64,000 bases of DNA, from the NCBI GenBank assembly GCA_951406725.2, contig OX597839.1:12834001-12898000 (forward strand), read 5' to 3'. Position numbers and translations under genes: made by a program. Of this stretch, positions 1 through 58,785 are shown piece by piece; positions within the stretch are counted from its first letter, which is position 1; the number at the start of each line of letters is the position of its first letter. The notes below the pieces were generated by a model, which saw nothing but the letters and a program-made list of their open reading frames with translations, was not told the DNA's origin and made no database searches. This DNA is from Octopus vulgaris (Eukaryota).

Positions 1-1470
1 AGGTACAATAAGCACTAAAAATATGCAGACAATAGACTCCCTCAAATGTTTGGGTGGATCATTAGAAGTAGTAGTATATGCATAACAGAGTGTAAATGAT
101 TTAAGGGGAAAACTGGGTATAAGAGGCATCATATGTTGTGTGCAAGAGAGAAGACTGTGCTGATTTGGTCATGTGATGCCTATGGATTAGGATAGCTGCA
201 TAAAGAAGTGCTGAGCTCTAAATGTGGAGGAACATATGGAAGGAGTAGACCCAGGGAGACATGGAATGATGTGGTGAGAAAAAATGGTGAAGATGATATA
301 TATTTAATACACACAATGTATGTTTTTATGTGCTACTATTAGTTTCACATGCTGAGGATTTGCCAGTCAGTGTTTTATAACATGTCTGGTGTCCTAACAC
401 AATCATCAGACAGTGCCAACATGGCATAAGTGTCTGATGACTGTGCTGGGACACTGGATGTGTTATAAAACACTGATTGGCATGTTCTCAGTACATGAAA
501 CTAATAGTAGCACACAGAAACATATATTATGTTTTTAGTAAATATTATTTATCTCTCCCTGGATGGAGTACTTTTTTTGTTGATCTTACCATTCTGAAAC
601 AGTACAGTATATGTGGTCAGTTGAGGATGGGGGACAAGAGAGAGATGTATGGAATTGGGAGCAGATGATAAGTGAGCATGGCATCAGCAACACTTACATT
701 ATTTGGAAAATGCAATGGAAAGAGTACAGTGAAATTGTCATGGAGAGTGGAATGTCCAGCATTTAAGATAGAGTGTGAAATTTGATGGCGATTTGACTGT
801 TATTTCTAAACAAAAAAGTAAATATGAAACATTTCAATATAAATTCTTAAGAATCATGGAAATATTTTTGCAGAGTCTAATACAAAACTGACTGAGAATC
901 AACTCAACAAAATATCCAAATACTTAGGGAATAAATGGAAGCGTGTTGGTAAGTATAAAATATACATTGCTTTAGATGTTTTGCTTCTATCATATCTTTA
1001 TTTTTTACTTGCTTCAGCCATTATGTTGTTGCCATGCTGGAGCAGCACATCGAAAAATTTTTAGTCGGATGAATCCAATACTTTCTTTTCTTTTTTTTTT
1101 CTTTAAGCCCGGTGCTTATTCTATCAGTCACTTTTGCTGAACTGCTAAGTTACAGAGATGCAAACACACCAACCCTGGATGACAAGCAGTGGTGGAAACA
1201 TGCACACACACGTGTGACAGGCTTCTTTCAGTTTCCATCTACCAAATCCACTCACAAGGTTTTGGTTGGGCTGGGGCTATAGTAGAAGACACTTGGCCAA
1301 GGTCCCATGCAGTGGGAATGAACCTGGAATCATGCAGTTGGGAAACAAATCTTCTTGCCACCCAGCCACCCCTACGCCTATCTAACTACAAAATAATGTT
1401 TAGTGAGTGATACGATACTTAATGTGATGAAGAAAAAATTTCAGTTAAAGTTGTTCTTGCTAGGAGGAGA
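1..1470 (+). repeat. Segmental duplication, near-identical to 55744-57212 (period ~55.7 kb)
   Basis: Direct read-through identity, including the RTE end, exon 4 and a SINE. Confidence 0.95.
874..948 (+). CDS. IMD-like gene copy B', exon 4 (N-terminal part of death domain; upstream exons lie left of the window)
   Basis: tttttgcag|AG...GTTG|gtaagt; 75-nt phase 1/1 exon encoding SNTKLTENQLNKISKYLGNKWKRV(G); matches the death-domain helix 1-2 pattern L..I...LG..WK..GR.L. Confidence 0.85.
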
Positions 1471-1584
1471 AGAAAAGAATCTTCACCCTTTTGCTACCAT
1501 ACTTTTGTTGGAACACTTCTTTTGTTGTAATTAATGTTGAAAATAATGAATTTATGAATATAACTGTTTTGAGATTAAGCTAGT

Positions 1585-1960
1585 CATCATCATCATCATC
1601 ATTTAACGTCTGCTTTCCATGCTAGCATGGGTTGGACGATTTGACTGAGCGCTGGTGAACCAGATGGCTCTACCAGGCTCCAATCTTGATCTGGCAGAGT
1701 TTCTACAGCTGGATGCCCTTCCTAACGCCAACCACTCCGAGAGTGTAGTATGTGCTTTTATGTGCCACCGGCACGGGGGCCAGTCAGGCGGTACTGGCAA
1801 CGACCTCGCACGAATCTTTTTACACATGCCACCGGCTCAGGTGCCAGTAAGGTGACGCTGGTAACGATTACACTCGAATGGTGCCTTTTATGTGCCACTG
1901 GCACTGAAGCCGGTTAGCTACTCTGTCAGCGATCACACTCGTATGGTGCTCTTTGCCAGT
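1585..1960 (-). mobile_element. RTE-tail-sharing short retroposon with (CAT)n end; other copies ~3920-4160, 10330-10560, 23804-24063(+), 31948-32325, 34280-34520, 62597-62855(+)
   Basis: catcatcatttaacgtctgctttccatgctagcatgggttggacg...; same 3' end as the RTE at 9790-10035. Confidence 0.8.
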
Positions 1961-2217
1961 CATTGAACTTGATTTTGATTTTGATTTAAATTAACATAAA
2001 ATTTGGATTCAAGATTTTAATTTAAATCACTTTAAAAACAAGAAATTTGTATCATAGAACCAAAGTCAGTAATAAAAATTTAGTGTTAACAGTTGACAAC
2101 TGTTTCAGGCCACCATTTTTCCCTATCGTAAATTTTTTCATTATGTATCCCTTTTAATTTATAAATCATTTACTATTATTATTGTTGTTGTCAATGATAT
2201 AATATTTTTATTTTCAG

Positions 2218-2423
2218 GTCGAAATTTAGACATTCAAGATGTTTTCCTGGGTAATATTCAATCTGACAACCCAGGGAATACTGTAGAACAGTGTTTTCAA
2301 ATGTTGAACAAATGGTCGGAAATATCTGAGCCAGGGATGTGTACAACAGGCAAATTAGCTAAGGCTCTCATTGATGCTGAGTGTTATGGTGTGATTCCAT
2401 ATTTACCATTAGATGAGGAGTGA
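2218..2423 (+). CDS. IMD-like gene copy B', terminal exon 5 (rest of death domain + stop)
   Basis: Polypyrimidine tract ttttattttcag|; in frame with exon 4: (G)RNLDIQDVFLGNIQSDNPGNTVEQCFQMLNKWSEISEPGMCTTGKLAKALIDAECYGVIPYLPLDEE*; death-domain hallmarks EQ.FQML.KW and T.GKL..AL. Confidence 0.85.
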
Positions 2424-6863: not shown

Positions 6864-8845
6864 TGTTGTGGAAGGATCCTGAACACCTCCATGTGACAAA
6901 AAAACGGACTAACGGATTTTCAATAAATAAAGAACTGTGAGAACTATCAGAAAGTTGATAGCATTGATTGTCCATATTGGTTACTGTGTTAGTTTAATAT
7001 CATAGCTAGGTTTGGAGTAGTACGGAGTGCATTCTGTGTTAACGTAATAATTCTGTGATAGGTTATTCTAGATAACCATATCCAAGTAATTATTTGGGTA
7101 ATACTATTCTTACACACATGTCATAATATTTTTGGTGATGAGGATATTCGAACCCATGCTGGACAGGTTATTGTTTGAACATGGAAGATTTACTAGCTCT
7201 GGTAATTCAATTACAGAAACAGCAGCAATACCAGCAGTTGTTGGAATTGCAGAAGCAACAGCAACTGTTAGTACAATGGCTACAGAAGAAAACAGAAAAT
7301 ATATCAAAAGGATGTGTTATAATACTATTCCACAGTCATACCAACAATCCAATAATACTAATCCATGTATACAAAAACAGCCATACCAATAATCCAACAT
7401 ATCCCCATCATCAGCTGCCCATCAGATATCATTATGGTTTTAACACCTGGGCAGTACCATTCAATCTGGCAGTGTCAACAGCACTAAAATAAGTGTTGTT
7501 TGGGAACAAGTAAACCAAAGAAACCACAACTTTCAAACACATTTACCCAATGTACAAACATATCGATAAATACATTCCATAAGTAAATTACAACCACTCC
7601 TAATTACATAACTAAACAGCGACAGCTCTGTTAAGTCATACAAAAATTGTAATCCCAACCGTCTTCTGTAGTATAATATAAAGGTAAAAGCTTAATGACA
7701 ACTTATTTCAATCAATCAATATATAGGCAGAATGTGTAGTTCATTCTGACATGGTCGCAAACTCCATCTGAGAGTTTGTATATAACCCAGAGGAGGGTAC
7801 TACTTTTCCTTCTTACTTTAGAGGGTATGAAGAAATTTTTAAAGATGAGTGCTCTGACTAGCAAGACGATAAATCAAACCTGACTTTTGTTGAGATAGTT
7901 GGCATCAGCCAAGCATGAGAAATATTGAAATTACATATTACCAAAGAGACCAGGTAAAGTCTGTTTTGAAGAAAATGTGAATATTCTGTCTAAGATTTTC
8001 AGCGAAAAAGCTCTTTATTTAATATGCATTGGCAATGCATGAATATTACAGAAAAATAAGATGAATATTTTATTACATATACTGGAATTGTTAATAGGGA
8101 AAGAGAATGTGAGAGATTTAAAAGTAATGAGCTATATGTTTAAATATTTAATTTTCGTGAAAAGTTTAATAGCAAAGAAAATGTGGAAATTCGGAACCAA
8201 ATTCTGACTAAATTAGAGCAGAATCAGAAGCTAATATTACAAGATATATCTAAAATATCTGAGGAATGCCGATCACATATACAATTGGTGTGACCAAAGG
8301 TAAGTAATGAAAAGGAGAATATTAACCCATGTTTTAGATGTGGAGAATTACACTACAAATTTGACTGTCCTTATAAAAATTGAAAATGCTTCAAGTGTAG
8401 TAAGATAGGCCATAAAAAATCACACTGTTAAACAAAATCTAGAAAATGGTTCAACAGAAAAACATCACGTAAACTGTTTATCAGTGACAAGAAATAAAGA
8501 TGAGACTTAAAAGAAATTTATGTATGTAAAATTTAATAATACAAATGTAAAATTACAGTTAGATACAGGTAGGGACATTATTTTAATTAATGAAAATACA
8601 TGGAAAAAAAATCAGGAAACCTTTACTACAGAAAACCTCAAAGCTTGCTCATGGAGTCTTGAGGATTAAATTAATTTTTGAAGGTGAAATTATTTGCAAT
8701 GTTACATTTCATTGTAAAACTATAAAAGCAAAAGCTTATGTATTACAAAATACAAGCATTCATTTTGAAATTGACTGGTTGGAACTGTTCAACTTTTAGC
8801 ATGCCCTGCAAGCCCATAACAGCTATTTGCAATAAAGAAGAAGTT
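6864..8845 (+). mobile_element. Decayed Ty3/Gypsy (Mag-like) LTR retrotransposon 5' half: putative LTR, PBS, gag, protease; copy at 36181-38160
   Basis: TG start at 6864; PBS-like tggtgatgagga at 7133; gag FVYNPEEGTTFPSYFRGYEEIF (7775); twin CCHC knuckles CFRCGELHYKFDC / CFKCSKIGHKKSHC (8330-8428); protease LQLDTG (8562); stops and frameshifts. Confidence 0.85.
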
Positions 8846-11705: not shown

Positions 11706-12337
11706 GTCGAGCGACAAAAATTCTGACACGAAATGAAAATTAAATTACGGCGATGTACTTACGTAGAAAGTAATTTGATCTGAGATCATATGCTGAAACA
11801 ATATCAGTTGCAGCGTGGAAGATGATTATCAGCCATTTAAGAAAATAAACAGGGAGAGAATGACAAAAATTTGTAGAGTTCAGCAGTCCAACATGGTGAA
11901 CATATGTATGTATGTATTTGTGTGTCTGTGTCCCCACCACCATTGCTTGTCAACAGATGTTGGTGTGTTTACATCCCTGTAACTTAGCAGTTCGGCAAAA
12001 GAGTCTGATAGAATAAGTACTAGGCTTACAAAGAATAACTCCTGGGGTTGATTTGTTCAACTGAAGGCAAGGCTCCAGCATGGCTGCAGTGAACTGACTG
12101 AAACAGGTAAATGAATAATTGTGTGCATGCATGAGAGAGAGAAACTGATGACCTAAATACAATTATGTAATTGAAATCGTCTATTGTATCAGTGACTGCC
12201 ACTACTACCCACTCCCACTCTGTCATTCACTTTTTTTCCTCACCTGCGTGAACAGCTACATATATAAGCTATATATTGTATTTCTTGTGCTGTAGCTTCT
12301 TGTTGAACGTCATTCACAGAAAATAGTTGGGACCACC

Positions 12338-12363
12338 ATGGATGAATCCAGAGAAATGCATCG
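12338..12363 (+). CDS. Paralog A exon 1 (MDESREMH + 2 nt)
   Basis: ACCACCATGG start context, donor CG|gttagt; identical in three copies (12338, 41800, 58760); phase 2 matches exon 2. Confidence 0.7.
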
Positions 12364-15300
12364 GTTAGTTAACTTTTCAAATAAGTTTTAGTTTTAAATA
12401 ACCTCATTCTTTTTGTTAGTTTATATTCTGTGCCTGTTAGATCTCTATCGAATCCTGAAACTTTCTTATCTTAAAATGAACTATCTTAATACTGTACTGC
12501 CAACCAGGAAGTACCAGCACTCCATATAACTTATAACTTTTTGATTTTTTTGGAATTTTCTGAAAATTTTAGTGATCTTGTGTTCTATACATGGGAATTC
12601 ATATGTGTTCTATACACAGGAATTCATATGTGTTCTATACACAGGAATCCAAATGATTATGAAAACTTAATACTGTACTGCCAACCAGGAAGTACCAGCA
12701 CTCCATAAAACCTCTTATAACTTTTTGATTTTTTGGAATTTTCAGAAAATTTTTGTGTGTTTGTGTTCTATACATAGGAATTCTTATGTTTATGAAAACT
12801 AAAACATTAGGTGTGTGCGTTTAAGGCAATATAACTTTATTTTAGCACAGCTCACTAATACCTCATATCTTCCTTGCACTGACATTTATTGATGTTTTTC
12901 AACGTTTTTCTCCCCATAAACACATTTAATGGAATGATGATGCACTCAAGGGTGGTTAATTGCTGGAATTTATTAATAAGAAAAAAAATTGAAAAAGATG
13001 GAACTTTTAGGAGTAGAGTTAAAAAAAATTAAGAAAAGAAAATTTTTTCTATACACAGGAATCCAAATGATTATGAAAACTTAATACTGTACTGCCAACC
13101 AGGAAGTACCAGCACTCCATAAAACCTCTTATAACTTTTTGATTTTTTGGAATTTTCAGAAAATTTTTGTGTGTTTGTGTTCTATACATAGGAATTCTTA
13201 TGTTTATGAAAACTAAAACATTTGGTGTGTGCGTTTAAGGCAATATAACTTTATTTTAGCACAGCTCACTAATACCTCATATCTTCCTTGCACTGACATT
13301 TATTGATGTTTTTCAACGTTTTTCTCCCCATAAACACATTTAATGGAATGATGATGCACTCAAGGGTGGTTAATTGCTGGAATTTATTAATAAGAAAAAA
13401 AATTGAAAAAGATGGAACTTTTAGGAGTAGAGTTAAAAAAAAATTAAGAAAAGAAAATTTTTTCTATACACAGGAATCCAAATGATTATGAAAACTTAAT
13501 ACTGTACTGCCAACCAGGAAGTACCAGCACTCCATAAAACCTCTTATAACTTTTTGATTTTTTGGAATTTTCAGAAAATTTTTGTGTGTTTGTGTTCTAT
13601 ACATAGGAATTCTTATGTTTATGAAAACTAAAACATTTGGTGTGTGCGTTTAAGGCAATATAACTTTATTTTAGCACAGCTCACTAATACCTCATATCTT
13701 CCTTGCACTGACATTTATTGATGTTTTTCAACGTTTTTCTCCCCATAAACACATTTAATGGAATGATGATGCACTCAAGGGTGGTTAATTGCTGGAATTT
13801 ATTAATAAGAAAAAAATTGAAAAAGATGGAACTTTTAGGAGTAGAGTTAAAAAAATAAAGAAAAGAAAATTTTTTCTATACACAGGAATCCAAATGATTA
13901 TGAAAACTTAATACTGTACTGCCAACCAGGAAGTACCAGCACTCCATAAAACCTCTTATAACTTTTTGATTTTTTGGAATTTTCAGAAAATTTTTGTGTG
14001 TTTGTGTTCTATACATAGGAATTCTTATGTTTATGAAAACTAAAACATTTGGTGTGTGCGTTTAAGGCAATATAACTTTATTTTAGCACAGCTCACTAAT
14101 ACCTCATATCTTCCTTGCACTGACATTTATTGATGTTTTTCAACGTTTTTCTCCCCATAAACACATTTAATGGAATGATGATGCACTCAAGGGTGGTTAA
14201 TTGCTGGAATTTATTAATAAGAAAAAAAATTGAAAAAGATGGAACTTTTAGGGGTAGAGTTAAAAAAAATTAAGAAAAGAAAATTTTTTCTATACACAGG
14301 AATCCAAATGATTATGAAAACTTAATACTGTACTGCCAACCAGGAAGTACCAGCACTCCATAAAACCTCTTATAACTTTTTGATTTTTGGAATTTTCAGA
14401 AAATTTTTGTGTGTTTGTGTTCTATACATAGGAATTCTTATGTTTATGAAAACTAAAACATTTGGTGTGTGCGTTTAAGGCAATATAACTTTATTTTAGC
14501 ACAGCTCACTAATACCTCATATCTTCCTTGCACTGACATTTATTGATGTTTTTCAACGTTTTTCTCCCCATAAACACATTTAATGGAATGATGATGCACT
14601 CAAGGGTGGTTAATTGCTGGAATTTATTAATAAGAAAAAAAATTGAAAAAGATGGAACTTTTAGGAGTAGAGTTAAAAAAAATTAAGAAAAGAAAATTTT
14701 TTCTATACACAGGAATCCAAATGATTATGAAAACTTAATACTGTACTGCCAACCAGGAAGTACCAGCACTCCATAAAACCTCTTATAACTTTTTGATTTT
14801 TTGGAATTTTCAGAAAATTTTTGTGTGTTTGTGTTCTATACATAGGAATTCTTATGTTTATGAAAACTAAAACATTTGGTGTGTGCGTTTAAGGCAATAT
14901 AACTTTATTTTAGCACAGCTCACTAATACCTCATATCTTCCTTGCACTGACATTTATTGATGTTTTTCAACGTTTTTCTCCCCATAAACACATTTAATGG
15001 AATGATGATGCACTCAAGGGTGGTTAATTGCTGGAATTTATTAATAAGAAAAAAAATTGAAAAAGATGGAACTTTTAGGAGTAAAGTTAAAAAAAATTAA
15101 GTAAAGAAAATTTTTTCTATACACAGGAATCCAAATGATTATGAAAACTTAATACTGTACTGCCAACCAGGAAGTACCAGCACTCCATAAAACCTCTTAT
15201 AACTTTTTGATTTTTTGGAATTTTCAGAAAATTTTTGTGTGTTTGTGTTCTATACATAGGAATTCTTATGTTTATGAAAACTAAAACATTTGGTGTGTGC

Positions 15301-18300
15301 GTTTAAGGCAATATAACTTTATTTTAGCACAGCTCACTAATACCTCATATCTTCCTTGCACTGACATTTATTGATGTTTTTCAACGTTTTTCTCCCCATA
15401 AACACATTTAATGGAATGATGATGCACTCAAGGGTGGTTAATTGCTGGAATTTATTAATAAGAAAAAAAATTGAAAAAGATGGAACTTTTAGGAGTAGAG
15501 TTAAAAAAAATTAAGAAAAGAAAATTTTTTCTATACACAGGAATCCAAATGATTATGAAAACTTAATACTGTACTGCCAACCAGGAAGTACCAGCACTCC
15601 ATAAAACCTCTTATAACTTTTTGATTTTTTGGAATTTTCAGAAAATTTTTGTGTGTTTGTGTTCTATACATAGGAATTCTTATGTTTATGAAAACTAAAA
15701 CATTTGGTGTGTGCGTTTAAGGCAATATAACTTTATTTTAGCACAGCTCACTAATACCTCATATCTTCCTTGCACTGACATTTATTGATGTTTTTCAACG
15801 TTTTTCTCCCCATAAACACATTTAATGGAATGATGATGCACTCAAGGGTGGTTAATTGCTGGAATTTATTAATAAGAAAAAAAAATTGAAAAAGATGGAA
15901 CTTTTAGGAGTAGAGTTAAAAAAAATTAAGAAAAGAAAATTTTTTCTATACACAGGAATCCAAATGATTATGAAAACTTAATACTGTACTGCCAACCAGG
16001 AAGTACCAGCACTCCATAAAACCTCTTATAACTTTTTGATTTTTTGGAATTTTCAGAAAATTTTTGTGTGTTTGTGTTCTATACATAGGAATTCTTATGT
16101 TTATGAAAACTAAAACATTTGGTGTGTGCGTTTAAGGCAATATAACTTTATTTTAGCACAGCTCACTAATACCTCATATCTTCCTTGCACTGACATTTAT
16201 TGATGTTTTTCAACGTTTTTCTCCCCATAAACACATTTAATGGAATGATGATGCACTCAAGGGTGGTTAATTGCTGGAATTTATTAATAAGAAAAAAAAA
16301 TTGAAAAAGATGGAACTTTTAGGAGTAGAGTTAAAAAAAATTAAGAAAAGAAAATTTTTTCTATACACAGGAATCCAAATGATTATGAAAACTTAATACT
16401 GTACTGCCAACCAGGAAGTACCAGCACTCCATAAAACCTCTTATAACTTTTTGATTTTTTGGAATTTTCAGAAAATTTTTGTGTGTTTGTGTTCTATACA
16501 TAGGAATTCTTATGTTTATGAAAACTAAAACATTTGGTGTGTGCGTTTAAGGCAATATAACTTTATTTTAGCACAGCTCACTAATACCTCATATCTTCCT
16601 TGCACTGACATTTATTGATGTTTTTCAACGTTTTTCTCCCCATAAACACATTTAATGGAATGATGATGCACTCAAGGGTGGTTAATTGCTGGAATTTATT
16701 AATAAGAAAAAAAATTGAAAAAGATGGAACTTTTAGGAGTAGAGTTAAAAAAAATTAAGAAAAGAAAATTTTTTCTATACACAGGAATCCAAATGATTAT
16801 GAAAACTTAATACTGTACTGCCAACCAGGAAGTACCAGCACTCCATAAAACCTCTTATAACTTTTTGATTTTTTGGAATTTTCAGAAAATTTTTGTGTGT
16901 TTGTGTTCTATACATAGGAATTCTTATGTTTATGAAAACTAAAACATTTGGTGTGTGCGTTTAAGGCAATATAACTTTATTTTAGCACAGCTCACTAATA
17001 CCTCATATCTTCCTTGCACTGACATTTATTGATGTTTTTCAACGTTTTTCTCCCCATAAACACATTTAATGGAATGATGATGCACTCAAGGGTGGTTAAT
17101 TGCTGGAATTTATTAATAAGAAAAAAAATTGAAAAAGATGGAACTTTTAGGAGTAGAGTTAAAAAAAATTAAGTAAAGAAAATTTTTTCTATACACAGGA
17201 ATCCAAATGATTATGAAAACTTAATACTGTACTGCCAACCAGGAAGTACCAGCACTCCATAAAACCTCTTATAACTTTTTGATTTTTTGGAATTTTCAGA
17301 AAATTTTTGTGTGTTTGTGTTCTATACATAGGAATTCTTATGTTTATGAAAACTAAAACATTTGGTGTGTGCGTTTAAGGCAATATAACTTTATTTTAGC
17401 ACAGCTCACTAATACCTCATATCTTCCTTGCACTGACATTTATTGATGTTTTTCAACGTTTTTCTCCCCATAAACACATTTAATGGAATGATGATGCACT
17501 CAAGGGTGGTTAATTGCTGGAATTTATTAATAAGAAAAAAAATTGAAAAAGATGGAACTTTTAGGAGTAGAGTTAAAAAAAATTAAGAAAAGAAAATTTT
17601 TTCTATACACAGGAATCCAAATGATTATGAAAACTTAATACTGTACTGCCAACCAGGAAGTACCAGCACTCCATAAAACCTCTTATAACTTTTTGATTTT
17701 TTGGAATTTTCAGAAAATTTTTGTGTGTTTGTGTTCTATACATAGGAATTCTTATGTTTATGAAAACTAAAACATTTGGTGTGTGCGTTTAAGGCAATAT
17801 AACTTTATTTTAGCACAGCTCACTAATACCTCATATCTTCCTTGCACTGACATTTATTGATGTTTTTCAACGTTTTTCTCCCCATAAACACATTTAATGG
17901 AATGATGATGCACTCAAGGGTGGTTAATTGCTGGAATTTATTAATAAGAAAAAAAATTGAAAAAAGATGGAACTTTTAGGAGTAGAGTTAAAAAAAATTA
18001 AGAAAAGAAAATTTTTTCTATACACAGGAATCCAAATGATTATGAAAACTTAATACTGTACTGCCAACCAGGAAGTACCAGCACTCCATAAAACCTCTTA
18101 TAACTTTTTGATTTTTGGAATTTTCAGAAAATTTTTGTGTGTTTGTGTTCTATACATAGGAATTCTTATGTTTATGAAAACTAAAACATTTGGTGTGTGC
18201 GTTTAAGGCAATATAACTTTATTTTAGCACAGCTCACTAATACCTCATATCTTCCTTGCACTGACATTTATTGATGTTTTTCAACGTTTTTCTCCCCATA

Positions 18301-21300
18301 AACACATTTAATGGAATGATGATGCACTCAAGGGTGGTTAATTGCTGGAATTTATTAATAAGAAAAAAAATTGAAAAAGATGGAACTTTTAGGAGTAGAG
18401 TTAAAAAAAATTAAGAAAAGAAAATTTTTCTATACACAGGAATCCAAATGATTATGAAAACTTAATACTGTACTGCCAACCAGGAAGTACCAGCACTCCA
18501 TAAAACCTCTTATAACTTTTTGATTTTTTGGAATTTTCAGAAAATTTTTGTGTGTTTGTGTTCTATACATAGGAATTCTTATGTTTATGAAAACTAAAAC
18601 ATTTGGTGTGTGCGTTTAAGGCAATATAACTTTATTTTAGCACAGCTCACTAATACCTCATATCTTCCTTGCACTGACATTTATTGATGTTTTTCAACGT
18701 TTTTCTCCCCATAAACACATTTAATGGAATGATGATGCACTCAAGGGTGGTTAATTGCTGGAATTTATTAATAAGAAAAAAAATTGAAAAAGATGGAACT
18801 TTTAGGAGTAGAGTTAAAAAAAATTAAGAAAAGAAAATTTTTTCTATACACAGGAATCCAAATGATTATGAAAACTTAATACTGTACTGCCAACCAGGAA
18901 GTACCAGCACTCCATAAAACCTCTTATAACTTTTTGATCTTTTGGAATTTTCAGAAAATTTTTGTGTGTTTGTGTTCTATACATAGGAATTCTTATGTTT
19001 ATGAAAACTAAAACATTTGGTGTGTGCGTTTAAGGCAATATAACTTTATTTTAGCACAGCTCACTAATACCTCATATCTTCCTTGCACTGACATTTATTG
19101 ATGTTTTTCAACGTTTTTCTCCCCATAAACACATTTAATGGAATGATGATGCACTCAAGGGTGGTTAATTGCTGGAATTTATTAATAAGAAAAAAAATTG
19201 AAAAAGATGGAACTTTTAGGAGTAGAGTTAAAAAAAATTAAGAAAAGAAAATTTTTTCTATACACAGGAATCCAAATGATTATGAAAACTTAATACTGTA
19301 CTGCCAACCAGGAAGTACCAGCACTCCATAAAACCTCTTATAACTTTTTGATTTTTGGAATTTTCAGAAAATTTTTGTGTGTTTGTGTTCTATACATAGG
19401 AATTCTTATGTTTATGAAAACTAAAACATTAGGTGTGTGCGTTTAAGGCAATATAACTTTATTTTAGCACAGCTCACTAATACCTCATATCTTCCTTGCA
19501 CTGACATTTATTGATGTTTTTCAACGTTTTTCTCCCCATAAACACATTTAATGGAATGATGATGCACTCAAGGGTGGTTAATTGCTGGAATTTATTAATA
19601 AGAAAAAAAATTGAAAAAGATGGAACTTTTAGGAGTAGAGTTAAAAAAAATTAAGAAAAGAAAATTTTTTCTATACACAGGAATCCAAATGATTATGAAA
19701 ACTTAATACTGTACTGCCAACCAGGAAGTACCAGCACTCCATAAAACCTCTTATAACTTTTTGATTTTTTGGAATTTTCAGAAAATTTTTGTGTGTTTGT
19801 GTTCTATACATAGGAATTCTTATGTTTATGAAAACTAAAACATTTGGTGTGTGCGTTTAAGGCAATATAACTTTATTTTAGCACAGCTCACTAATACCTC
19901 ATATCTTCCTTGCACTGACATTTATTGATGTTTTTCAACGTTTTTCTCCCCATAAACACATTTAATGGAATGATGATGCACTCAAGGGTGGTTAATTGCT
20001 GGAATTTATTAATAAGAAAAAAAATTGAAAAAGATGGAACTTTTAGGAGTAAAGTTAAAAAAAATTAAGTAAAGAAAATTTTTTCTATACACAGGAATCC
20101 AAATGATTATGAAAACTTAATACTGTACTGCCAACCAGGAAGTACCAGCACTCCATAAAACCTCTTATAACTTTTTGATTTTTTGGAATTTTCAGAAAAT
20201 TTTTGTGTGTTTGTGTTCTATACATAGGAATTCTTATGTTTATGAAAACTAAAACATTTGGTGTGTGCGTTTAAGGCAATATAACTTTATTTTAGCACAG
20301 CTCACTAATACCTCATATCTTCCTTGCACTGACATTTATTGATGTTTTTCAACGTTTTTCTCCCCATAAACACATTTAATGGAATGATGATGCACTCAAG
20401 GGTGGTTAATTGCTGGAATTTATTAATAAGAAAAAAAATTGAAAAAGATGGAACTTTTAGGAGTAGAGTTAAAAAAAATTAAGAAAAGAAAATTTTTTCT
20501 ATACACAGGAATCCAAATGATTATGAAAACTTAATACTGTACTGCCAACCAGGAAGTACCAGCACTCCATAAAACCTCTTATAACTTTTTGATTTTTTGG
20601 AATTTTCAGAAAATTTTTGTGTGTTTGTGTTCTATACATAGGAATTCTTATGTTTATGAAAACTAAAACATTTGGTGTGTGCGTTTAAGGCAATATAACT
20701 TTAATTTAGCACAGCTCACTAATACCTCATATCTTCCTTGCACTGACATTTATTGATGTTTTTCAACGTTTTTCTCCCCATAAACACATTTAATGGAATG
20801 ATGATGCACTCAAGGGTGGTTAATTGCTGGAATTTATTAATAAGAAAAAAAATTGAAAAAGATGGAACTTTTAGGAGTAGAGTTAAAAAAAATTAAGAAA
20901 AGAAAATTTTTTCTATACACAGGAATCCAAATGATTATGAAAACTTAATACTGTACTGCCAACCAGGAAGTACCAGCACTCCATAAAACCTCTTATAACT
21001 TTTTGATTTTTTGGAATTTTCAGAAAATTTTTGTGTGTTTGTGTTCTATACATAGGAATTCTTATGTTTATGAAAACTAAAACATTTGGTGTGTGCGTTT
21101 AAGGCAATATAACTTTATTTTAGCACAGCTCACTAATACCTCATATCTTCCTTGCACTGACATTTATTGATGTTTTTCAACGTTTTTCTCCCCATAAACA
21201 CATTTAATGGAATGATGATGCACTCAAGGGTGGTTAATTGCTGGAATTTATTAATAAGAAAAAAAATTGAAAAAGATGGAACTTTTAGGAGTAAAGTTAA

Positions 21301-23466
21301 AAAAAATTAAGAAAAGAAAATTTTTTCTATACACAGGAATCCAAATGATTATGAAAACTTAATACTGTACTGCCAACCAGGAAGTACCAGCACTCCATAA
21401 AACCTCTTATAACTTTTTGATTTTTTGGAATTTTCAGAAAATTTTTGTGTGTTTGTGTTCTATACATAGGAATTCTTATGTTTATGAAAACTAAAACATT
21501 TGGTGTGTGCGTTTAAGGCAATATAACTTTATTTTAGCACAGCTCACTAATACCTCATATCTTCCTTGCACTGACATTTATTGATGTTTTTCAACGTTTT
21601 TCTCCCCATAAACACATTTAATGGAATGATGATGCACTCAAGGGTGGTTAATTGCTGGAATTTATTAATAAGAAAAAAAATTGAAAAAGATGGAACTTTT
21701 AGGAGTAGAGTTAAAAAAAATTAAGAAAAGAAAATTTTTTCTATACACAGGAATCCAAATGATTATGAAAACTTAATACTGTACTGCCAACCAGGAAGTA
21801 CCAGCACTCCATAAAACCTCTTATAACTTTTTGATTTTTTGGAATTTTCAGAAAATTTTTGTGTGTTTGTGTTCTATACATAGGAATTCTTATGTTTATG
21901 AAAACTAAAACATTTGGTGTGTGCGTTTAAGGCAATATAACTTTATTTTAGCACAGCTCACTAATACCTCATATCTTCCTTGCACTGACATTTATTGATG
22001 TTTTTCAACGTTTTTCTCCCCATAAACACATTTAATGGAATGATGATGCACTCAAGGGTGGTTAATTGCTGGAATTTATTAATAAGAAAAAAAATTGAAA
22101 AAGATGGAACTTTTAGGAGTAGAGTTAAAAAAAATTAAGAAAAGAAAATTTTTTCTATACACAGGAATCCAAATGATTATGAAAACTTAATACTGTACTG
22201 CCAACCAGGAAGTACCAGCACTCCATAAAACCTCTTATAACTTTTTGATTTTTTGGAATTTTCAGAAAATTTTTGTGTGTTTGTGTTCTATACATAGGAA
22301 TTCTTATGTTTATGAAAACTAAAACATTTGGTGTGTGCGTTTAAGGCAATATAACTTTATTTTAGCACAGCTCACTAATACCTCATATCTTCCTTGCACT
22401 GACATTTATTGATGTTTTTCAACGTTTTTCTCCCCATAAACACATTTAATGGAATGATGATGCACTCAAGGGTGGTTAATTGCTGGAATTTATTAATAAG
22501 AAAAAAAATTGAAAAAGATGGAACTTTTAGGAGTAAAGTTAAAAAAAATTAAGAAAAGAAAATTTTTTCTATACACAGGAATCCAAATGATTATGAAAAC
22601 TTAATACTGTACTGCCAACCAGGAAGTACCAGCACTCCATAAAACCTCTTATAACTTTTTGATTTTTTGGAATTTTCAGAAAATTTTTGTGTGTTTGTGT
22701 TCTATACATAGGAATTCTTATGTTTATGAAAACTAAAACATTTGGTGTGTGCGTTTAAGGCAATATAACTTTATTTTAGCACAGCTCACTAATACCTCAT
22801 GTCTTCCTTGCATTGATGTTTTTCAACGTTTTTCTCCCCATAAACACATTTAATGGAATGATGATGCACTCAAGGGTGGTTAATTGCTGGAATTTATTAA
22901 TAAGAAAAAAAATTGAAAAAGTTTCAACTTTTAGGAGTAGAGTTAAAAAAAATTAAGAAAAGAAAATTTTTTTACATAATCATATATGGAGGCATGGCTG
23001 TGTGGTGAGAAGCATAGTTCGCAACCACATGGTTCTGGGTTCAGTCCCATTACATGGCACCTCAAGTAAGTGTTTTCTATTATATTCTCAGGCCAACCAA
23101 AGACTCAAGAATGGATTTGGTAGATGGAAACTGAAAGAAGCCCACATATATATGGCTATTTATATACATGTATATATAAATGTAGCCATGTGTGTGTGTC
23201 TTTATGTCTATGATTGTCCACCCGTCATCACTTGACAACTGGTATTGGTGTGATTATGTCACTGTAACTTTGCAGTCCAGCAAAAGTGACTGATAGAATA
23301 AATGCCAGGCTTAAAAATAAGCACTGGAATTGATTTGTGACCCCTTCAAGGTGATACTGTAGTATAGGCTCAATCAAATGACTGAAACAACTAGAAAAAA
23401 TAAGGAACAAATTCATCATTCCATTAAAAGTCCCATCATTATACGTTGGGGCCCACACTGTAAGCA

Positions 23467-26500: not shown

Positions 26501-27622
26501 TGAATCTGTTGTTCAACACTGAAAAATGACTATGACAAAGACTTCACCTTTCAACTAAGAAAATGTATTTTGTATGTAGTTTATTTTAAGATATTTTTGT
26601 TTCTTCTCACTCTCCATAACTACATTTCCTGACCACTCCTTTTCCACCTCCAACTGTGTAATATATTTACACATAAATGTATACATGTATGTTTGTGGAA
26701 TGAACTCATAATGGATATTTTATTTATCTTTCATTTCCATTCCAGCAAAGACAAAACTTTACCAGCCAACACTTATAAAACCAATTCAAAAACTGTAACG
26801 TCCAGCAGTAACTCTGATGCATTACTCAGTAGTGAAGATGTAAAAGGAAACAATAATGCAGTACCCAAGCCTACAGGAGAAGGTAATGATAAAATAAGAG
26901 AAATACCCAAATCTAATGAAACTAACGCACTACCTCCACTTTGTAACAATTTCAGCAAGAATACTTGCATTGTGCTTCCTGTTAGAGGAGCTAGTAGCTC
27001 TTATGCTCAAGAAGCAGCATGCCTTCCTATTGAGGAATCTAAAACAAAATCCCTTTCCATTAATTCCCCAAACAACCAGCTAAACTCTGCAAATGTACCC
27101 CAAATGTTTCCACAAGGCTGTAAGCACCATTCTTTTTTATATTTTCTTAGATAACCTCACCATCATTACTTTATTATCATTGCTTAATAATCATTACTCA
27201 TTATTTTGCCATCACTACTTTCCCATCATTTCTTTATTATCATTACTTTCTCATTAAAAAAAAAAATTTTATGTGCCCTTTTCAACCCTAGCCAGGTTCA
27301 TGGGCCCGTTTTCCTAGTTTCTGTGGTGTATGTGTTCCCCCTAGCTGGATGGGATGCCAGTCCATTGCAGCCTTACTCAAGAAGCAGGAAGAAAGAGTGA
27401 GAGAAAGTTGGGGTAAAAGAGAACAACAGGGGTCACTACCAGCCCTGCAGGAGCCTTGCATCCTTTTGTTTATTGAAGACCAGCAGTCACTCATGCATAC
27501 CAGCCTCCCCTCTCCATGTCAGCGGAATTTTAACTCAGAACATGAAGACAGACAAAATACTGCTAAGCATTTTGCCCAACATGCTAATGGTTCTGTCAGC
27601 TCACCTCCTTAAAACTGTTTTA

Positions 27623-27911: not shown

Positions 27912-28815
27912 AATTATTATAATAATAATAATAATTATAATGATAATAGTAATAAAGATGATGATGATTTCAAATTTTGGCTCAAGGCCAGCATTTTAGG
28001 TGGAAGGGATGAATTGATTACATTGACCATAGTGTTTAACTGGTACTTACTTCATCAACTCTGAAAGGATGAAAGGCAAAGTCATAATCAGCACACACAC
28101 ACAGGGGACAATTACCCCCTCTCCAATATATTAGGAAGTTTTAAATGAACATCCTTTAAATGAACATCCTTAGGGGTAATTTTCGTTGGGGTGGGGGTGT
28201 AAATGTCTTACACTCAATATATACGACAGGCTTCTTTAAGTTTCCATCTATCAAATCCACTCAGTTGTGGTTTGCCTAAGGATATATTAGAAGACACTTG
28301 GTCCAAGATGTCACTTTGAGAAGCAAACTTTTTAACACACATGTATCTATGTATTATATTCTCAAAAATTTATGATCTTGATGCTATGTTATAAATTTTA
28401 TAGTTATTCCAGCAACTATTAGAAATGGAAAGAATGTTGCAGTTGGGGGTGACTCTAATGTTACAAATACGAAAACCGCAGAACCTGAGAAGAAAAAATG
28501 TGAGACTGATAAAGATGAAGTGAAATTCAGCAAGTATCTCAGTAAGTAAAAGTAGTTTCCATTTGTTTACTCTTTTTACTCTTTTACTTGTTTCAGTCAT
28601 TTGATTGCAGATCAAAGCAAGATGAAATGTTTTGCTCAAGAATACATCAAAACACTTGATCCAGGAATGAAACCCACAATCTGGCAATTGTGAGTGGGAA
28701 ACCCTATCACTGGACCTCACACACACACACACACATGTATATATGTGTGTATGTATATATATATATGCACACACACACACACACACACTCACACTTTTGT
28801 ATATTCATATATATG

Positions 28816-29298: not shown

Positions 29299-32200
29299 AA
29301 ATACATATATTGGGTTATCCCTGTAAAAAATGCATTTTTTATACTTCTTTTATTTTCCAAAATTAAGAAAAGTTCTTTTCTAATCTAAATTCTACTCTCC
29401 TTCATTTTCTACAATGCTCTTCTGTTTATCTGGTAGACTTGCAAGGCCCCTCTTCCAAAATTCTCTTGTCTGTGATGAAAAATACTCCTCCAGTATTGTT
29501 CTGACCTTCTCTACAGAATTCATATTTATTTCGTCCAAATGATTTTGAAGACTGTGGAATAAATGATGGGACAATGTCCAGCAAATATGGTGGGTGAGGC
29601 AAAAAAGGTTCATTCATGAGATGTGACAGCAAAGAAGATGTGACGCAGCACGTGATTAGACTTGGAAAGCTTGTGAGCAACCCATTGACCCAATTTGCTT
29701 ACTTTTCCGATGGCACACAGGTGTCGATGAATCCAAGCTTTTCTGCTAGTTCCTCAACACTTACAATAGGATTTTGTTCCACCAGGATTTGCAGGATGTC
29801 CTAGTTGAGCTCCACAGATCTTCCAGGACGAGGCTCATCTTCTAGTCTGTAGTTTCCAGCTTGTGTATATATTAAATAAGATTTATCTCTCCCCAGATAG
29901 AGTACTTTTTTGTAGATCTTACCAACCTGAAACAATACACTCTATGTGGTCAGTTGATGGTGGAGGACAAGAGAGAGACTTATGGAATTGGGAGAAGATG
30001 ATAAGTGAGCATGGCATCAGCAACACTTACATTATTTGGAAAATGTAATGGAAAGAGTACAGTGAAATTGCCTTGAAGAGTGGAATGTCTAAAGTTTCCA
30101 AAAATGGATAGTCCCGTGGGGTGTTTACAAAAATACTTATAGAGTTACAATTATGTAAAATATTGTCATGCTGCTTAGAAAAATAACATAACAGGGAATC
30201 TCTTTTACGATATAAATTAAATCAAAATTTCAACTAAATATATAACTAATATAACTATTCGTTGAAATTTAAATTATAATAAATTTATTGCAAAAACTTA
30301 TGTTGCAAATTGTAGGTGAAACACCCCAATACAATAACAGAGAAAAGTTTCAGTCATCAAAAATAGCCACAATATATTTCTTATGAGTTGAAATGGAAAG
30401 CAAAATCAATGTGAGCTGATTATGAAGGCAATGCTGAAAAGTTCCATAAGGCCAGGCTGGAGGTTGAACATTTTGAGCTCTTTTACAGGTCTTAGAAAAA
30501 CTGTCACACTGTTGCAATAAATGTGTGAATCTGAGAGAAGATGTTGAATAACATCATAAATAAACTGATTCTCCAGTAATTTTTTTTTTTACTCAAAGCC
30601 AGGAACTTTTCAGTATTCCCTAATATATAGCCAGTACTGTTCACTCAGATTCCCCACCAGTTGATGTCAAAGCGACATCTGCCTCCCACAACAACTGAGC
30701 TACAGTGGCACAACACAACATGTTACACACCCTCACTTAGTCAGAAAGGTAGTGGGAAGGAGCAAAATAAAACAAGTTGCCAACTAAGGATTGCAAGCAT
30801 TTAAAAAATTGGGGGATGACAAAACACCCCATGTGACTAACACAGGATTAAGATAGAGTGTGAAATTTGATGGTGATTTGGCTGTTATTTCTAAACAAAA
30901 AAGTAAATATGAAACATTTCAATAGGGTTGCTGAACCATCGAACAAACTGCCGGCATCAGTTGTTAGTTGTCGGAGCACTGCATCCTTCAAAACTTCCAT
31001 GCTTCCTGAGATTCGCCAACACTACACTTGATTTTCTCCCCTCCATACACACACAAGCATGTATCTGACTCATACATTGTTCGCTTTCCAGACATTTCTA
31101 CATTACTGCATGTACTTTATATGCACTTTCTGACAAGTTGTGTTGCACCTGAGCACTGTATACAATTAATTTCATTATTATTATTATAAATTCTTAAGAA
31201 TCATGGAAATATTTTTGCAGAGTCTAATACAAAACTGACTCAGAAACACCTCAACAAAATAGCCGCATACCTAGGGAATAAATGGAAGTCTGTTGGTAAG
31301 TATAAAATATACATTGCTTTAGATGTTTTGCTTCTATCATATCTTGATGTGTTTTTTACTTGCTTCAGCCATTATGTTGTTGCCATGCTGGGGCAGCACC
31401 TCAAAGAATTTTTAGTCGGATGAATCCAATACTTTATTTTCTTTTTTTTTAAGCCCAGTGCTTATTCTATCAGTCACTTTTGCTGAACTGCTAAGTTACA
31501 AAGATGCAAACACACCAACCCTGGATGTCAAGCAGTGGTGGAAACATACACAGACACAAACATGCACACACACGTGTGACAGGCTTCTTTCAGTTTCCAT
31601 CTACCAAATGCACTCACAAGGTTTTGGTTGGGCTGGGGCTATAGTAGAAGACACTTGGCCAAGGTCCCATGCAGTGGGAATGAACCTGGAATCATGCAGT
31701 TGGGAAGCAAATCTTCTTGCCACCCAGCCACCCCTATGCCTATCTAACTACAAAATAATGTTTAGTGAGTGCTACGATACTTAATGTGATGAAGAAAAAA
31801 ATTTCAGTTAAAGTTGTTCTTGCTAGGAGGAGAAGAAAAGAATCTTCACCCTGTTGCTACCATACTTTTGTTGGAACACTTCTTTTGTTGTAATTAATGT
31901 TGAAAATAATGAATTTATGAATATAACTGTTTTGAGATTAAGCTAGTCATCATCATCATCATCATTTAACGTCTGCTTTCCATGCTAGCATGGGTTGGAC
32001 GATTTGACTGAGCGCTGGTGAACCAGATGGCTCTACCAGGCTCCAATCTTGATCTGGCAGAGTTTCTACAGCTGGATGCCCTTCCTAACACCAACCACTC
32101 CGAGAGTGTAGTATGTGCTTTTATGTGCCACCGGCACGGGGGCCAGTCAGGCGGTACTGGCAACGACCTCGCTCGAATCTTTTTACACATGCCACCGGCT

Positions 32201-32786
32201 CAGGTGCCAGTAAGGTGACGCTGGTAACGATTACACTCGAATGGTGCCTTTTATGTGCCACTGGCACTGAAGCCGGTTAGCTACTCTGTCAGCGATCACA
32301 CTCGTATGGTGCTCTTTGCCAGTCATTGAACTTGATTTTGATTTTGATTTAAATTAACATAAAATTTGGATTCAAGATTTTAATTTAAATCACTTTAAAA
32401 ACAAGAAATTTGTATCATAGAACCAAAGTCAGTATTAAAAATTTAGTGTTAACAGTTGACAACTGTTTCAGGCCACCATTTTTCCCTATCGTAAATTTTT
32501 TCATTATGTATCCCTTGAAATTTATAAATCATTTACTATTATTATTGTTGTTGTCAATGATATAATATTTTTATTTTCAGGTCGAAATTTAGACATTCAA
32601 GATGTTTTCCTGGGTAATATTGAATCTGACAACCCACAGAAAACTGAAGAAGAGTGTTTTCAAATGTTGAAGAAATGGTCGGAAATATCTGAGCCAGGGA
32701 TGTGTACAACAGGCAAATTAGCTAAGGCTCTCATTGATGCTGAGTGTTATGGTGTGATTCCATATTTACCATTAGATGAGGAGTGA
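12338..32786 (+). CDS. Paralog A: complete spliced IMD-like adaptor (IBM-like repeats + RHIM-like motif + death domain), 269 aa; join(12338..12363,26746..27119,28413..28541,31221..31295,32581..32786)
   Basis: Kozak-type gaccaccATGg. All four introns are GT-AG with matching phases (2,1,1,1), giving an uninterrupted 810-nt CDS MDESREMHRKDKTLPAN...STIRNGKNVAVGGDSNVTN...LTQKHLNKIAAYLGNKWKSVGRNL...PLDEE*. Same exon set and phases recur in paralog B. Confidence 0.8.
12486..22975 (+). repeat. 414-bp satellite/VNTR in intron 1 of paralog A, ~25 near-identical units plus a partial leader
   Basis: Unit acttaatactgtactgccaaccaggaagtacc... recurs every ~414 bp from 12665 to 22599. Confidence 0.98.
24870..25255 (-). 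mobile_element. RTE LINE fragment; copy at ~63650-64000
   Basis: LEVVDSFHYLGDQVS...VATRIR; same family as 8846-9700. Confidence 0.8.
25337..25406 (-). ncRNA. Decayed hammerhead-like motif next to a (TA)n tract
   Basis: Minus strand GCCAUAUAA CUGAGAA GAUG...CAUC CAAA ACUCAGAGU U UUAUCAUGGC; all three stems present, two core substitutions. Confidence 0.4.
26746..27119 (+). CDS. Paralog A exon 2 (low-complexity region with degenerate IBM-like repeats)
   Basis: ttccattccag|C AAA GAC...GGC T|gtaagc; lies inside ORF 26693..27154; homologous to exon at 48055. Confidence 0.8.
28413..28541 (+). CDS. Paralog A exon 3 (RHIM-like TIRNGKNVAVGGDSNVTN)
   Basis: ttattccag|CA ACT ATT...TAT CTC A|gtaagt; 129 nt, phase 1/1; homologous to exon at 51506 (both end KFSKY[L/F]). 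Confidence 0.8.
29309..29862 (-). mobile_element. Internally deleted mariner transposase remnant
   Basis: LEDEPRPGRS...GKVSKLGQWVAHKL (WVPHEL-like), LPHPPY..D..PS (YSPDL region), HLFHSLQNHL, FWKRGLASLP..K.IVENEGE. Confidence 0.85.
30109..30839. mobile_element. MITE-like element with ~18-bp TIRs containing a nested mariner-type MITE (30421-30625)
   Basis: tagtcccgtggggtgttt ... aaacaccccatgtgacta; nested tgctgaaaagttcc ... ggaacttttcagta; absent from the B-type intron. Confidence 0.6.
30925..31186 (+). mobile_element. 5'-truncated CR1-like LINE 3' end with (ATT)n tail, A-specific insertion
   Basis: VAEPSNKLPASVVSCRSTASFK resembles the CR1 C-terminal WN.LP..VV...S...FK; empty site ttcaatataaattc at 833-846. 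Confidence 0.65.
31221..31295 (+). CDS. Paralog A exon 4 (death domain N-part, SNTKLTQKHLNKIAAYLGNKWKSVG)
   Basis: tttttgcag|...GTTG|gtaagt; 75 nt; paralogous to 874-948. Confidence 0.85.
32581..32786 (+). CDS. Paralog A exon 5 (death domain C-part + stop)
   Basis: ttattttcag|GT CGA AAT TTA...GAG GAG TGA; paralogous to 2218-2423. Confidence 0.85.
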
Positions 32787-41400: not shown

Positions 41401-41799
41401 CCATCGCTTGTCAACAGATGTTGGTGTGTTTACATCCCTGTAACTTAGCAGTTCGGCAAAAGAGTCTGATAGAATAAGTACTAGGCTTACAAAGAATAAC
41501 TCCTGGGGTTGATTTGTTCAACTAAAGGCAATGCTCCAGCATGGCTGCAGTGAACTGACTGAAACAGGTAAATGAATAATTGTGTGCATGCATGAGAGAG
41601 AGAGAAACTGATGACCTAAATACAATTATGTAATTGAAATCGTCTATTGTATCAGTGACTGCCACTACTACCCACTCCCACTCTGTCATTCACTTTTTTC
41701 CTCACCTGCGTGAACAGCTACATATATAAGCTATATATTGTGTTTCTTGTGCTGTAGCTTCTTGTTGAACGTCATTCACAGAAAATAGTTGGGACCACC

Positions 41800-56691
<14,892 letters not shown>

Positions 56692-57212: not shown

Positions 57213-57312
57213 NNNNNNNNNNNNNNNNNNNNNNNNNNNNNNNNNNNNNNNNNNNNNNNNNNNNNNNNNNNNNNNNNNNNNNNNNNNNNNNNNNNNNNNN
57301 NNNNNNNNNNNN
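57213..57312. other. Assembly gap (100 N); by homology ~9.5 kb (equivalent to 1471-10982, including exon 5 of B) is missing
   Basis: Left flank matches up to 1470, right flank resumes at 10983. Confidence 0.95.
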
Positions 57313-58759: not shown

Positions 58760-58785
58760 ATGGATGAATCCAGAGAAATGCATCG
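58760..58785 (+). CDS. Exon 1 of a further A-type copy (A'); gene continues beyond the window
   Basis: Identical to 12338-12363; downstream intron matches A-specific sequence (62597-64000 vs 23804-25220). Confidence 0.7.

What the first reader, a model, noticed from the sequence alone, without database searches (positions are those of the whole stretch)
26746..26945. Paralog A lacks the P1 Asp or the IBM at the aligned modules: possible cleavage-resistant decoy or partner
Aligned by eye with B: ETD|AVPL vs KDK|TLPA, DDD|SIPK vs NNN|AVPK, KTD|AVPR vs ETN|ALPP, KIR|AIPK vs KIR|EIPK. The AVPI module is absent. Only SNSD|ALLS keeps an Asp, and it is followed by a non-canonical IBM. So no module in A combines Asp with a canonical AVP. 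Inference: A and B may form an inhibitor/activator or sensor/helper pair, or A may respond to Asn-specific proteases such as legumain.
Basis: partly seen in the sequence, partly recalled or inferred. Interest (0 to 1): 0.72.

Follow-up and report, generated by a model that had tools for sequence, protein, structure and literature searches.

The report
Octopus immune adaptor lacking activation switch
An octopus carries tandem copies of a gene for a predicted immune-signalling adaptor, and this copy (or its near-identical twin) is spliced into a short form without the predicted cut-and-dock motifs that its sister copies keep, so it likely works as a built-in brake, a role nobody has tested.

Summary
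The window lies in a six-unit tandem array of a small Octopus vulgaris gene with IMD/kinase-less RIPK1 architecture: disordered N-terminus, RHIM-like motif, death domain. B carries four A[VIT]P motifs (0.11 expected), two after Asp, all kept in O. bimaculoides. A has none after Asp, through a 6-nt and a 39-nt deletion. Contigs of 4 of 4 runs (3 studies) join it to the next exon, so KIR|EIPK and ETN|ALPP lie in the intron of that transcript. B keeps the long exon. The Asn/legumain idea fails: N|AVPK is N|VVPK in paralog C and in O. sinensis. A's RHIM-like motif scores poorly, while its death domain is open and changing fast among copies (exon 6: 11 of 11 changes non-synonymous). Best reading: A is a death-domain competitor that cannot be caspase-switched to bind IAPs, like the engineered ImdD30A (0.42). 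Rivals: an IAP-independent or pro-death adaptor, or a decaying duplicate. No binding or cleavage is shown, IMD orthology is unresolved, and copy number may be inflated by assembly.

The parts
7822..7953 (+). Upstream exon of unit A (5' exon; in-frame ATG at 7915 used by the O. sinensis model)
   Evidence: tblastn of P0002, 13 of 13 residues identical; AG/GT ends seen; junction not checked with RNA
12296..12363 (+). Exon 2 of A; ATG at 12338 in ACCACCATGG context gives MDESREMH
   Evidence: the RNA contigs carry 22-48 upstream letters that were not shown, so the junction is inferred
12633..22972 (.). About 25 copies of a 414-bp repeat inside intron 2 of A; no long open frame
   Evidence: self-blast, six-frame translation of one unit
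26746..26882 (+). Exon 3 of A as spliced in RNA contigs: KDKTLPA...SNSDALLS...NNNAVPKPTGE; no Asp followed by A[VIT]P
   Evidence: contigs 26745-26880 joined to 28402 (GT..AG, cut +2) in 4 of 4 runs; donor GAAG|GTAATG
26883..27119 (+). Still-open extension homologous to the 3' half of B exon 3 (KIREIPK, ETNALPP); intronic in the joined contigs, exonic in the GenBank model CAI9741232.1
28404..28541 (+). Exon 4 of A with a weak RHIM-like stretch NGKNVAVGGDSNV (28424-28462)
   Evidence: RNA joints; PWM score -3.6 bits, reached in 44 of 1000 shuffles; coordinates
31221..31295 (+). Exon 5 of A, first part of the death domain
   Evidence: joints 28541-31221 and 31294-32580 in 4 of 4 runs
32581..32786 (+). 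Exon 6 of A, rest of the death domain and stop
   Evidence: Pfam Death on P0001, E 2.4e-7, 31.2 bits, over cut-off; closest solved sequences to P0002 are RIPK1 death domains
41758..41825 (+). Exon 2 of B (unit U4), A-type sequence
48055..48533 (+). Exon 3 of B: DETD|AVPL 48059-48082, ETK|AVPI 48170-48190, DDD|SIPK 48212-48232, KIR|AIPK 48254-48274, SKTD|AVPR 48293-48316
   Evidence: contigs over 48053/4-48533 in 3 of 4 runs and 48053-48509 in the fourth; joint 48533-51506 in 4 of 4 runs; coordinates
51506..51628 (+). Exon 4 of B; with the end of exon 3 it forms the RHIM-like [16 protein letters not shown]
   Evidence: PWM 20.6 bits, reached in 0 of 1000 shuffles
56617..56691 (+). Exon 5 of B; its exon 6 would fall in the assembly gap
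   Evidence: joint 51628-56617 in 3 of 4 runs
57213..57312 (.). 100-N assembly gap between units U4 (B) and U5 (A')
874..2423 (+). Exons 5 (874-948) and 6 (2218-2423) of unit U2, a B-type copy whose exon 3, upstream of the window, has a 1-nt deletion as assembled
58718..58785 (+). Exon 2 of unit U5 (A'), whose exon 3 and extension are 374 of 374 identical to A and lie just past the window

Best explanation
A is a spliced, shortened paralog of an octopus gene with IMD/kinase-less RIPK1 architecture; it has lost the predicted caspase-cut/IAP-binding motifs and keeps an open death domain, so it likely acts as a brake on its sister adaptor. Shown: gene structure, deletions, the donor at 26882, the open death domain, and conservation of B's motifs in O. 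bimaculoides. Inferred from Drosophila IMD: B binds FADD through its death domain, a caspase-8-like enzyme cuts it at DETD|A or SKTD|A, the new AVP N-terminus binds an IAP, and ubiquitin chains drive NF-kB. Inferred for A: it would occupy FADD or B death domains but could not expose an IBM, so it would dilute or cap the complex, as the engineered ImdD30A does.
For: Architecture: Pfam Death over cut-off; RIPK1 death domains are the top solved relatives; named IMD proteins of Schistocerca (LTTD|AVPI) and Penaeus (IKTD|SAPL) are among the hits. Insect IMDs conserve D/A at LETDA, LTTDA, LKSDA (PMC6626034, passages). B's motifs are non-random and all five are kept in O. bimaculoides P0008. An unnamed relative in the same death-domain clade, P0018, has three D|AxP repeats plus RHIM-like motif and death domain, which favours loss in A. 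A-type transcripts are spliced through to the death domain in 4 of 4 runs. The short form also appears in the O. sinensis model P0002. An A-type death domain exists in O. bimaculoides (P0003; clade support 87/82), so the A lineage has likely persisted. FADD, a tandem-DED caspase-8-like locus and 26 BIR matches are in the genome. ImdD30A is a dominant inhibitor (PMC9023782, passages).
Against: No functional data. Purifying selection on A's death domain is not shown: U1 vs A omega 0.62, CI 0.34-1.09. The kept N-terminal part evolves at omega 1.38, CI 0.63-4.24 against B. A's RHIM-like motif scores -3.6 bits against 20.6 for B, so it may not join a RHIM fibril, unlike ImdD30A. The young A-type death domains are changing quickly, which fits changing partners as well as a fixed brake. 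The RNA cannot tell A from A' in exon 3, and the exon-4 letter at 28470 is that of A' in 4 of 4 runs, so expression of unit U3 itself is not shown. The cephalopod death domains do not group with arthropod IMD in the free tree.
Confidence: 0.42

Rival explanations
1. A is an active adaptor that signals without IAPs. It would recruit FADD and caspase-8 but escape IAP ubiquitination, tilting output to cell death, or it would be ubiquitinated by the related ankyrin-RING-death-domain ligases instead.
For: Open, spliced death domain. An expanded octopus ANK-RING-DD family falls in the same death-domain clade (100/92) and shares the exon-6 start. That non-ubiquitinated RIPK1 favours death is recalled knowledge, not from a call.
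Against: Weak RHIM-like motif in A; nothing links the RING family to this gene beyond domain kinship; the direct insect precedent for a non-cleavable IMD is inhibition.
Confidence: 0.23
2. A is a decaying duplicate in an unstable tandem array: still transcribed, but its lost motifs and new donor reflect relaxed selection and it has no role of its own.
For: omega near 1 in the N-terminus and extension (1.38 and 1.14); a frameshifted neighbour U2 and chimeric U2/U4 show turnover; weak RHIM; U2-U3 and U4-U5 are 98-99% alike across an N gap, so some copies may be haplotypes.
Against: All deletions and the new donor keep the frame. A-type death domains occur in three Octopus species. Exon 6 shows an excess of amino-acid change over flanking DNA, 11 of 159 sites against 14 of 969, Fisher p=2.3e-4, which plain decay does not predict.
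Confidence: 0.2
3. A-type copies are diversifying baits or sensors: their death domains vary to catch pathogen effectors that target the B death domain, with B as the signalling helper.
For: 23 non-synonymous against 1 synonymous change over exons 5-6 of four copies, binomial p=0.022; intron 5 differs at 29 of 1226 sites; exon 6 alone 11 against 0.
Against: 5 of the 11 exon-6 minor alleles equal the U1 letter, so gene conversion may explain part; 0 synonymous of 11 alone has p=0.076; no effector is known.
Confidence: 0.12
4. A senses Asn-specific proteases such as legumain, which would cut at NNN|AVPK and expose an IBM.
For: One N|AVPK remains in the spliced form; chance 0.011 (short form) to 0.043 (long form) by shuffling, chosen after the fact.
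Against: C and O. sinensis P0002 have N|VVPK; ETN|ALPP is spliced out; Asn makes up 11% of the region; legumain is primarily endolysosomal (PMC9788469, start of abstract).
Confidence: 0.03

Closest known systems
Arthropod IMD (Drosophila IMD; Schistocerca AFK75938.1, Penaeus BAH86597.1, Tenebrio TmIMD)
   Same: Kinase-less, 200-300 aa; N-terminal Asp|Ala-x-Pro site, RHIM-like motif, C-terminal death domain (B; PMC6626034 and PMC9496462 passages).
   Different: B has two D|AVP sites, one D|SIP and two further A[VI]P motifs where the insect proteins described have one site. A has none. The octopus death domains form a cephalopod clade apart from arthropod IMD, though a joint clade is not rejected (AU p=0.077).
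RIPK1 and invertebrate RIPK1-like kinases (Owenia CAH1778590.1, Mercenaria XP_053401645.1)
   Same: RHIM followed by a death domain; best solved-structure sequence matches are RIPK1 death domains, E 7.6e-7. Databases name the octopus proteins RIPK1-like.
   Different: No kinase domain in any octopus model and none among the frames of 90 aa or more printed for 65 kb upstream of the array (read by eye); vertebrate RIPK1 was not seen to carry tandem IBM-like motifs.
Engineered ImdD30A and the natural inhibitor Pirk
   Same: A non-cleavable IMD is a dominant inhibitor (PMC9023782 passages); Pirk is a cRHIM-bearing negative regulator (PMC9496462, PMC4262963 passages).
   Different: ImdD30A is a laboratory point mutant with an intact cRHIM; Pirk works through its cRHIM. 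A is a natural paralog with a death domain and a weak RHIM-like motif, and its activity is untested.

Membership tests
IMD-like adaptor (copy B/U1) | C-terminal death domain, no kinase | tested here: met
   Pfam Death E 3e-10 on P0008, no kinase family; U1 model P0006 starts at exon 2
IMD-like adaptor (copy B/U1) | N-terminal Asp followed by an IBM-like A-x-P | tested here: met
   DETD|AVPL and SKTD|AVP[RQ], conserved in O. bimaculoides; P=0.0001 by shuffle. Sequence only; cleavage not tested.
IMD-like adaptor (copy B/U1) | RHIM/cRHIM before the death domain | tested here: inconclusive
   Own PWM from 30 hand-picked windows: 20.6 bits, 0 of 1000 shuffles; Pfam RHIM not hit at E<=0.05
IMD-like adaptor (copy B/U1) | Orthology to arthropod IMD | tested here: inconclusive
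   Not one clade in the free tree of 55 rows x 105 columns; not rejected, AU p=0.077
IMD-like adaptor (copy B/U1) | Cut by caspase-8/DREDD, binds IAP, signals to NF-kB downstream of a receptor | not testable with these tools
   Partners exist in the genome; activity needs experiments
IMD-like adaptor (copy A) | N-terminal Asp followed by an IBM-like A-x-P | tested here: not met
   0 DA[VIT]P and 0 D[AS][VIT]P in the N-terminal region of short and long forms
IMD-like adaptor (copy A) | RHIM/cRHIM | tested here: inconclusive
   -3.6 bits, 44 of 1000 shuffles; O. sinensis A-type 1.6 bits, 18 of 1000; training windows ranged -15.3 to 33.3 left-one-out
IMD-like adaptor (copy A) | Intact death domain | tested here: met
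   Pfam Death 31.2 bits over cut-off 22.6; spliced in 4 of 4 runs
RIPK1 kinase | N-terminal kinase domain | tested here: not met
   No Pkinase hit on P0001, P0002, P0008
Dominant-negative decoy adaptor | Lowers pathway output when co-expressed and binds the shared partner | not testable with these tools
   Needs reporter and co-precipitation assays

The most novel reading that the evidence does not exclude
Octopuses have an IMD-type caspase/IAP switch adaptor with several cut-and-dock sites, and have evolved from it a natural switchless inhibitor family, made by in-frame deletions and a new splice donor, whose death domains diversify under positive selection: an endogenous equivalent of ImdD30A that tunes a mollusc IMD-like pathway.
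Probability: 0.3. Interest if true: 0.72.

Novelty: new variant of a known kind. Interest (0 to 1): 0.48.

Why it matters
A 2023 paper states that the Imd adaptor had not been found in molluscs (PMC9835746, passages); I recall bivalve 'IMD-like' reports but could not find them in the library. The octopus B/U1 protein has the full IMD motif set and is filed only as 'RIPK1-like' or 'uncharacterized'. It makes the question of an IMD-type caspase/IAP switch in cephalopods directly testable. If A is a brake, it is a natural version of a laboratory inhibitor mutant and shows how deletions plus one splice donor turn an activator into a regulator. The GenBank model of A (CAI9741232.1) includes 79 codons that the joined contigs skip, and a different first exon.

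Tried and rejected
Run search: no holder on record as RNA was listed; the runs laid are RNA by the tool's guess, and contig depths were not used to rank genes. Complex prediction of A's death domain with octopus FADD's death domain: no answer, score 0.00, controls not folded, alignment not used; not counted either way. ESM Atlas: top three clusters were arthropod death-domain proteins at 0.88-0.89, under the 0.9 mark, a lead only. The death-domain dN/dS was out of frame and is discarded; it was redone. A search for a kinase-bearing RIPK1 in the genome gave 13 kinase matches; I opened 1 of 13 (a Ror-like receptor kinase by my reading), so whether octopus has a separate RIPK1 is open. The 414-bp array has no long frame. 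The first exon of P0001 (MEDLLALVIQLQKQ, 7181-7267) was set aside because the A contigs start at 26745, sharing only the G of the acceptor, which fits exon 2's end CATCG; this is indirect. Paquette 2010 was not held. PMC12137711, PMC9334734, PMC3308963, PMC8995041 (term look-ups) gave nothing on mollusc IMD. Searches listed no paper on these octopus genes or on a natural IBM-less IMD paralog (listings only; subscription journals are not held; no supplements read).

Full report
Setting. The window is G000:C26:12834001-12898000. A protein 100% identical over the 100-aa query is annotated in Octopus vulgaris as RIPK1-like (P0001, CAI9741232.1). Exon-3 and death-domain searches and mapping over 264 kb show six tandem units. 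In window coordinates of exon 3 they are: U1 (B-type, about -35300, divergent death domain), U2 (B-type, -7676, 1-nt deletion as assembled), U3 = A (26746), U4 = B (48055, last exon in the N gap at 57213-57312), U5 = A' (65523, exon 3 identical to A) and U6 = C (84788). U2 and U4 are chimeras: A-type upstream region and exon 2, then exons 3-4 99% identical to U1; U2 ends in an A-type exon 6. U2-U3 and U4-U5 are 98-99% alike across the gap, so true copy number is uncertain.

The observation. In B, A[VIT]P occurs 4 times against 0.11 expected (0 of 20000 shuffles) and DA[VIT]P twice (P=0.0001); O. bimaculoides P0008 keeps all five motifs. The motifs look like decayed repeats of one unit, so the P values overstate independence. 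A lost the Asp-Ala of the first site by a 6-nt deletion and the AVPI module by a 39-nt deletion, both in frame.

Contigs of 4 of 4 runs from 3 studies join 26882 (GAAG|GTAATG) to 28404, then 28541 to 31221 and exon 5 to exon 6. In 3 of 4 runs the mean depth of bin 26810-27150 equals what the spliced contig alone gives; run X1 has some extra cover, so a long or unspliced form exists there. B has no GT at the aligned place and uses the long exon 48055-48533 (joint in 4 of 4 runs). The O. sinensis A-type model P0002 also runs PKPTGE straight into exon 4; I did not see its DNA. The predicted A protein is 193 aa: 54 polar residues, a RHIM-like stretch and a death domain. Caveat: exon 3 is identical in A and A', and the exon-4 letter read at 28470 is that of A' in all four runs. 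The transcript seen may come from A' or from another allele of A. Both share the donor.

What family. phmmer of P0005 over 1.84 billion representatives gave 222 hits, 150 listed. Of the 147 proteins P0009-P0155, 12 carry D-[AS]-[VITA]-P, 10 of them within the first 60 residues. These include named IMD proteins of Schistocerca and Penaeus. Insect IMDs conserve LETDA, LTTDA or LKSDA at the caspase/IBM junction (PMC6626034, passages); B has DETDA and SKTDA. A PWM from 30 hand-picked RHIM/cRHIM windows scores B 20.6 bits, P0018 12.9, O. bimaculoides B 10.6, Argonauta 8.1, O. sinensis A 1.6, C 0.9 and A -3.6. Pfam's RHIM model hits none of the three octopus proteins scanned. In a 55-row death-domain tree the octopus proteins group with Argonauta P0009, unnamed P0018 and octopus-type ANK-RING-DD proteins (100/92), apart from arthropod IMD; a joint clade with IMD is not rejected (AU p=0.077). 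So B works like IMD by anatomy; membership by descent is unresolved.

Polarity and age. B-type proteins of three species form a clade (98/91) and A-type another (87/82) that includes O. bimaculoides P0003, so the split likely predates these species. P0003 starts inside exon 4 and Argonauta P0009 is partial, so neither shows the N-terminus. P0018 has three D|AxP repeats (KID|AMPV, KTD|ANPI, KPD|AMPI). With IMD's conserved D|A, loss in A is the simpler reading; this is inference.

The Asn idea. N|AVPK is private to A/A' (N|VVPK in C and P0002), the second Asn site is intronic, and legumain is primarily endolysosomal (PMC9788469, start of abstract). I give it 0.03.

Selection. A's death domain against U1: omega 0.62 (CI 0.34-1.09); kept N-terminus against B 1.38 (0.63-4.24); A/C extension 1.14 (0.56-2.62). 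None differs clearly from 1. Among the four A-type death domains there are 23 non-synonymous and 1 synonymous change (p=0.022) against 29 of 1226 sites in intron 5. In exon 6 alone it is 11 and 0, or 11 of 159 non-synonymous sites against 14 of 969 flanking sites (Fisher p=2.3e-4); 5 of the 11 minor alleles equal U1, so conversion may contribute.

Mechanism. In Drosophila, IMD's death domain binds FADD, DREDD cuts IMD, and the exposed IBM recruits DIAP2 for K63 ubiquitination (PMC9496462, PMC5316886, PMC6626034, passages). IBMs need an exposed N-terminal Ala or Ser (PMC7290580, passages). The octopus genome has a FADD-like DED-plus-death-domain frame, a tandem-DED locus and 26 BIR matches. B would follow this scheme with spare sites. 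A could enter through its death domain but could not be switched, like ImdD30A, a dominant inhibitor (PMC9023782, passages). I put this at 0.42, against an IAP-independent or pro-death adaptor (0.23), decay (0.20), diversifying bait (0.12) and Asn sensing (0.03). Every functional step is inferred.

Novelty. The kind (IMD/RIPK1-like adaptor, decoy paralog) is known. The multi-site octopus form and its switchless, alternatively spliced paralogs were not found in the paper searches (listings only), and one paper says Imd was not found in molluscs (PMC9835746, passages). Three look-ups in the scan's own notes (near, words, sequence) showed nothing on this locus. Verdict: new variant of a known kind, interest 0.48.

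Noticed in passing
window 874-2423, 31221-32786 and L017/L019 (death-domain exons of U2, A, A', C): Death-domain exons differ almost only at amino-acid-changing sites (23 against 1; exon 6: 11 against 0) while introns differ at about 2%; possible positive selection, partly gene conversion.
   Followed up: partly
L033-L047 (G000 C29, C31 and others): Dozens of related death-domain exons with the same exon start; the C29/C31 copies best match octopus ankyrin-RING-death-domain proteins that share a clade with this gene's death domain.
   Followed up: partly
L015 (G000:C26 about 12826325-12826802): Unit U2 has a 1-nt deletion in exon 3 that shifts the frame before the RHIM-like motif and death domain; pseudogene or assembly error not resolved.
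   Followed up: partly
window 46559-57212: The window's B copy is 99% identical to U1 over 10.7 kb but sits behind an A-type upstream region and exon 2; both U1-type and U4-type exon 4 occur in contigs of 4 of 4 runs.
   Followed up: partly
window 12633-22972 and 59055-61127: A 414-bp repeat has about 25 copies in intron 2 of A, at least 5 in A' and 1 in B; copies are over 99% alike.
   Followed up: no
window 28402-28412: A has two in-frame acceptors 9 nt apart; A' has lost the second and B and C lack the first.
   Followed up: partly
P0018 (unnamed record): A relative with three longer repeats each carrying D|AxP, then RHIM-like motif and death domain; multiple switch sites may be a wider trait of this clade.
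   Followed up: partly
L018 (unit C, G000:C26 about 12918788-12919167): C keeps IETD|ALPV, an Asp in a caspase-8-like context (recalled specificity) followed by A-L-P, in the extension and has GC, not GT, at the aligned donor; if it uses the long exon it may still be cleavable.
   Followed up: no
L049:1489-2043 (G000:C26 about 2421500): Single-exon FADD-like gene (DED plus death domain) on the same chromosome.
   Followed up: partly
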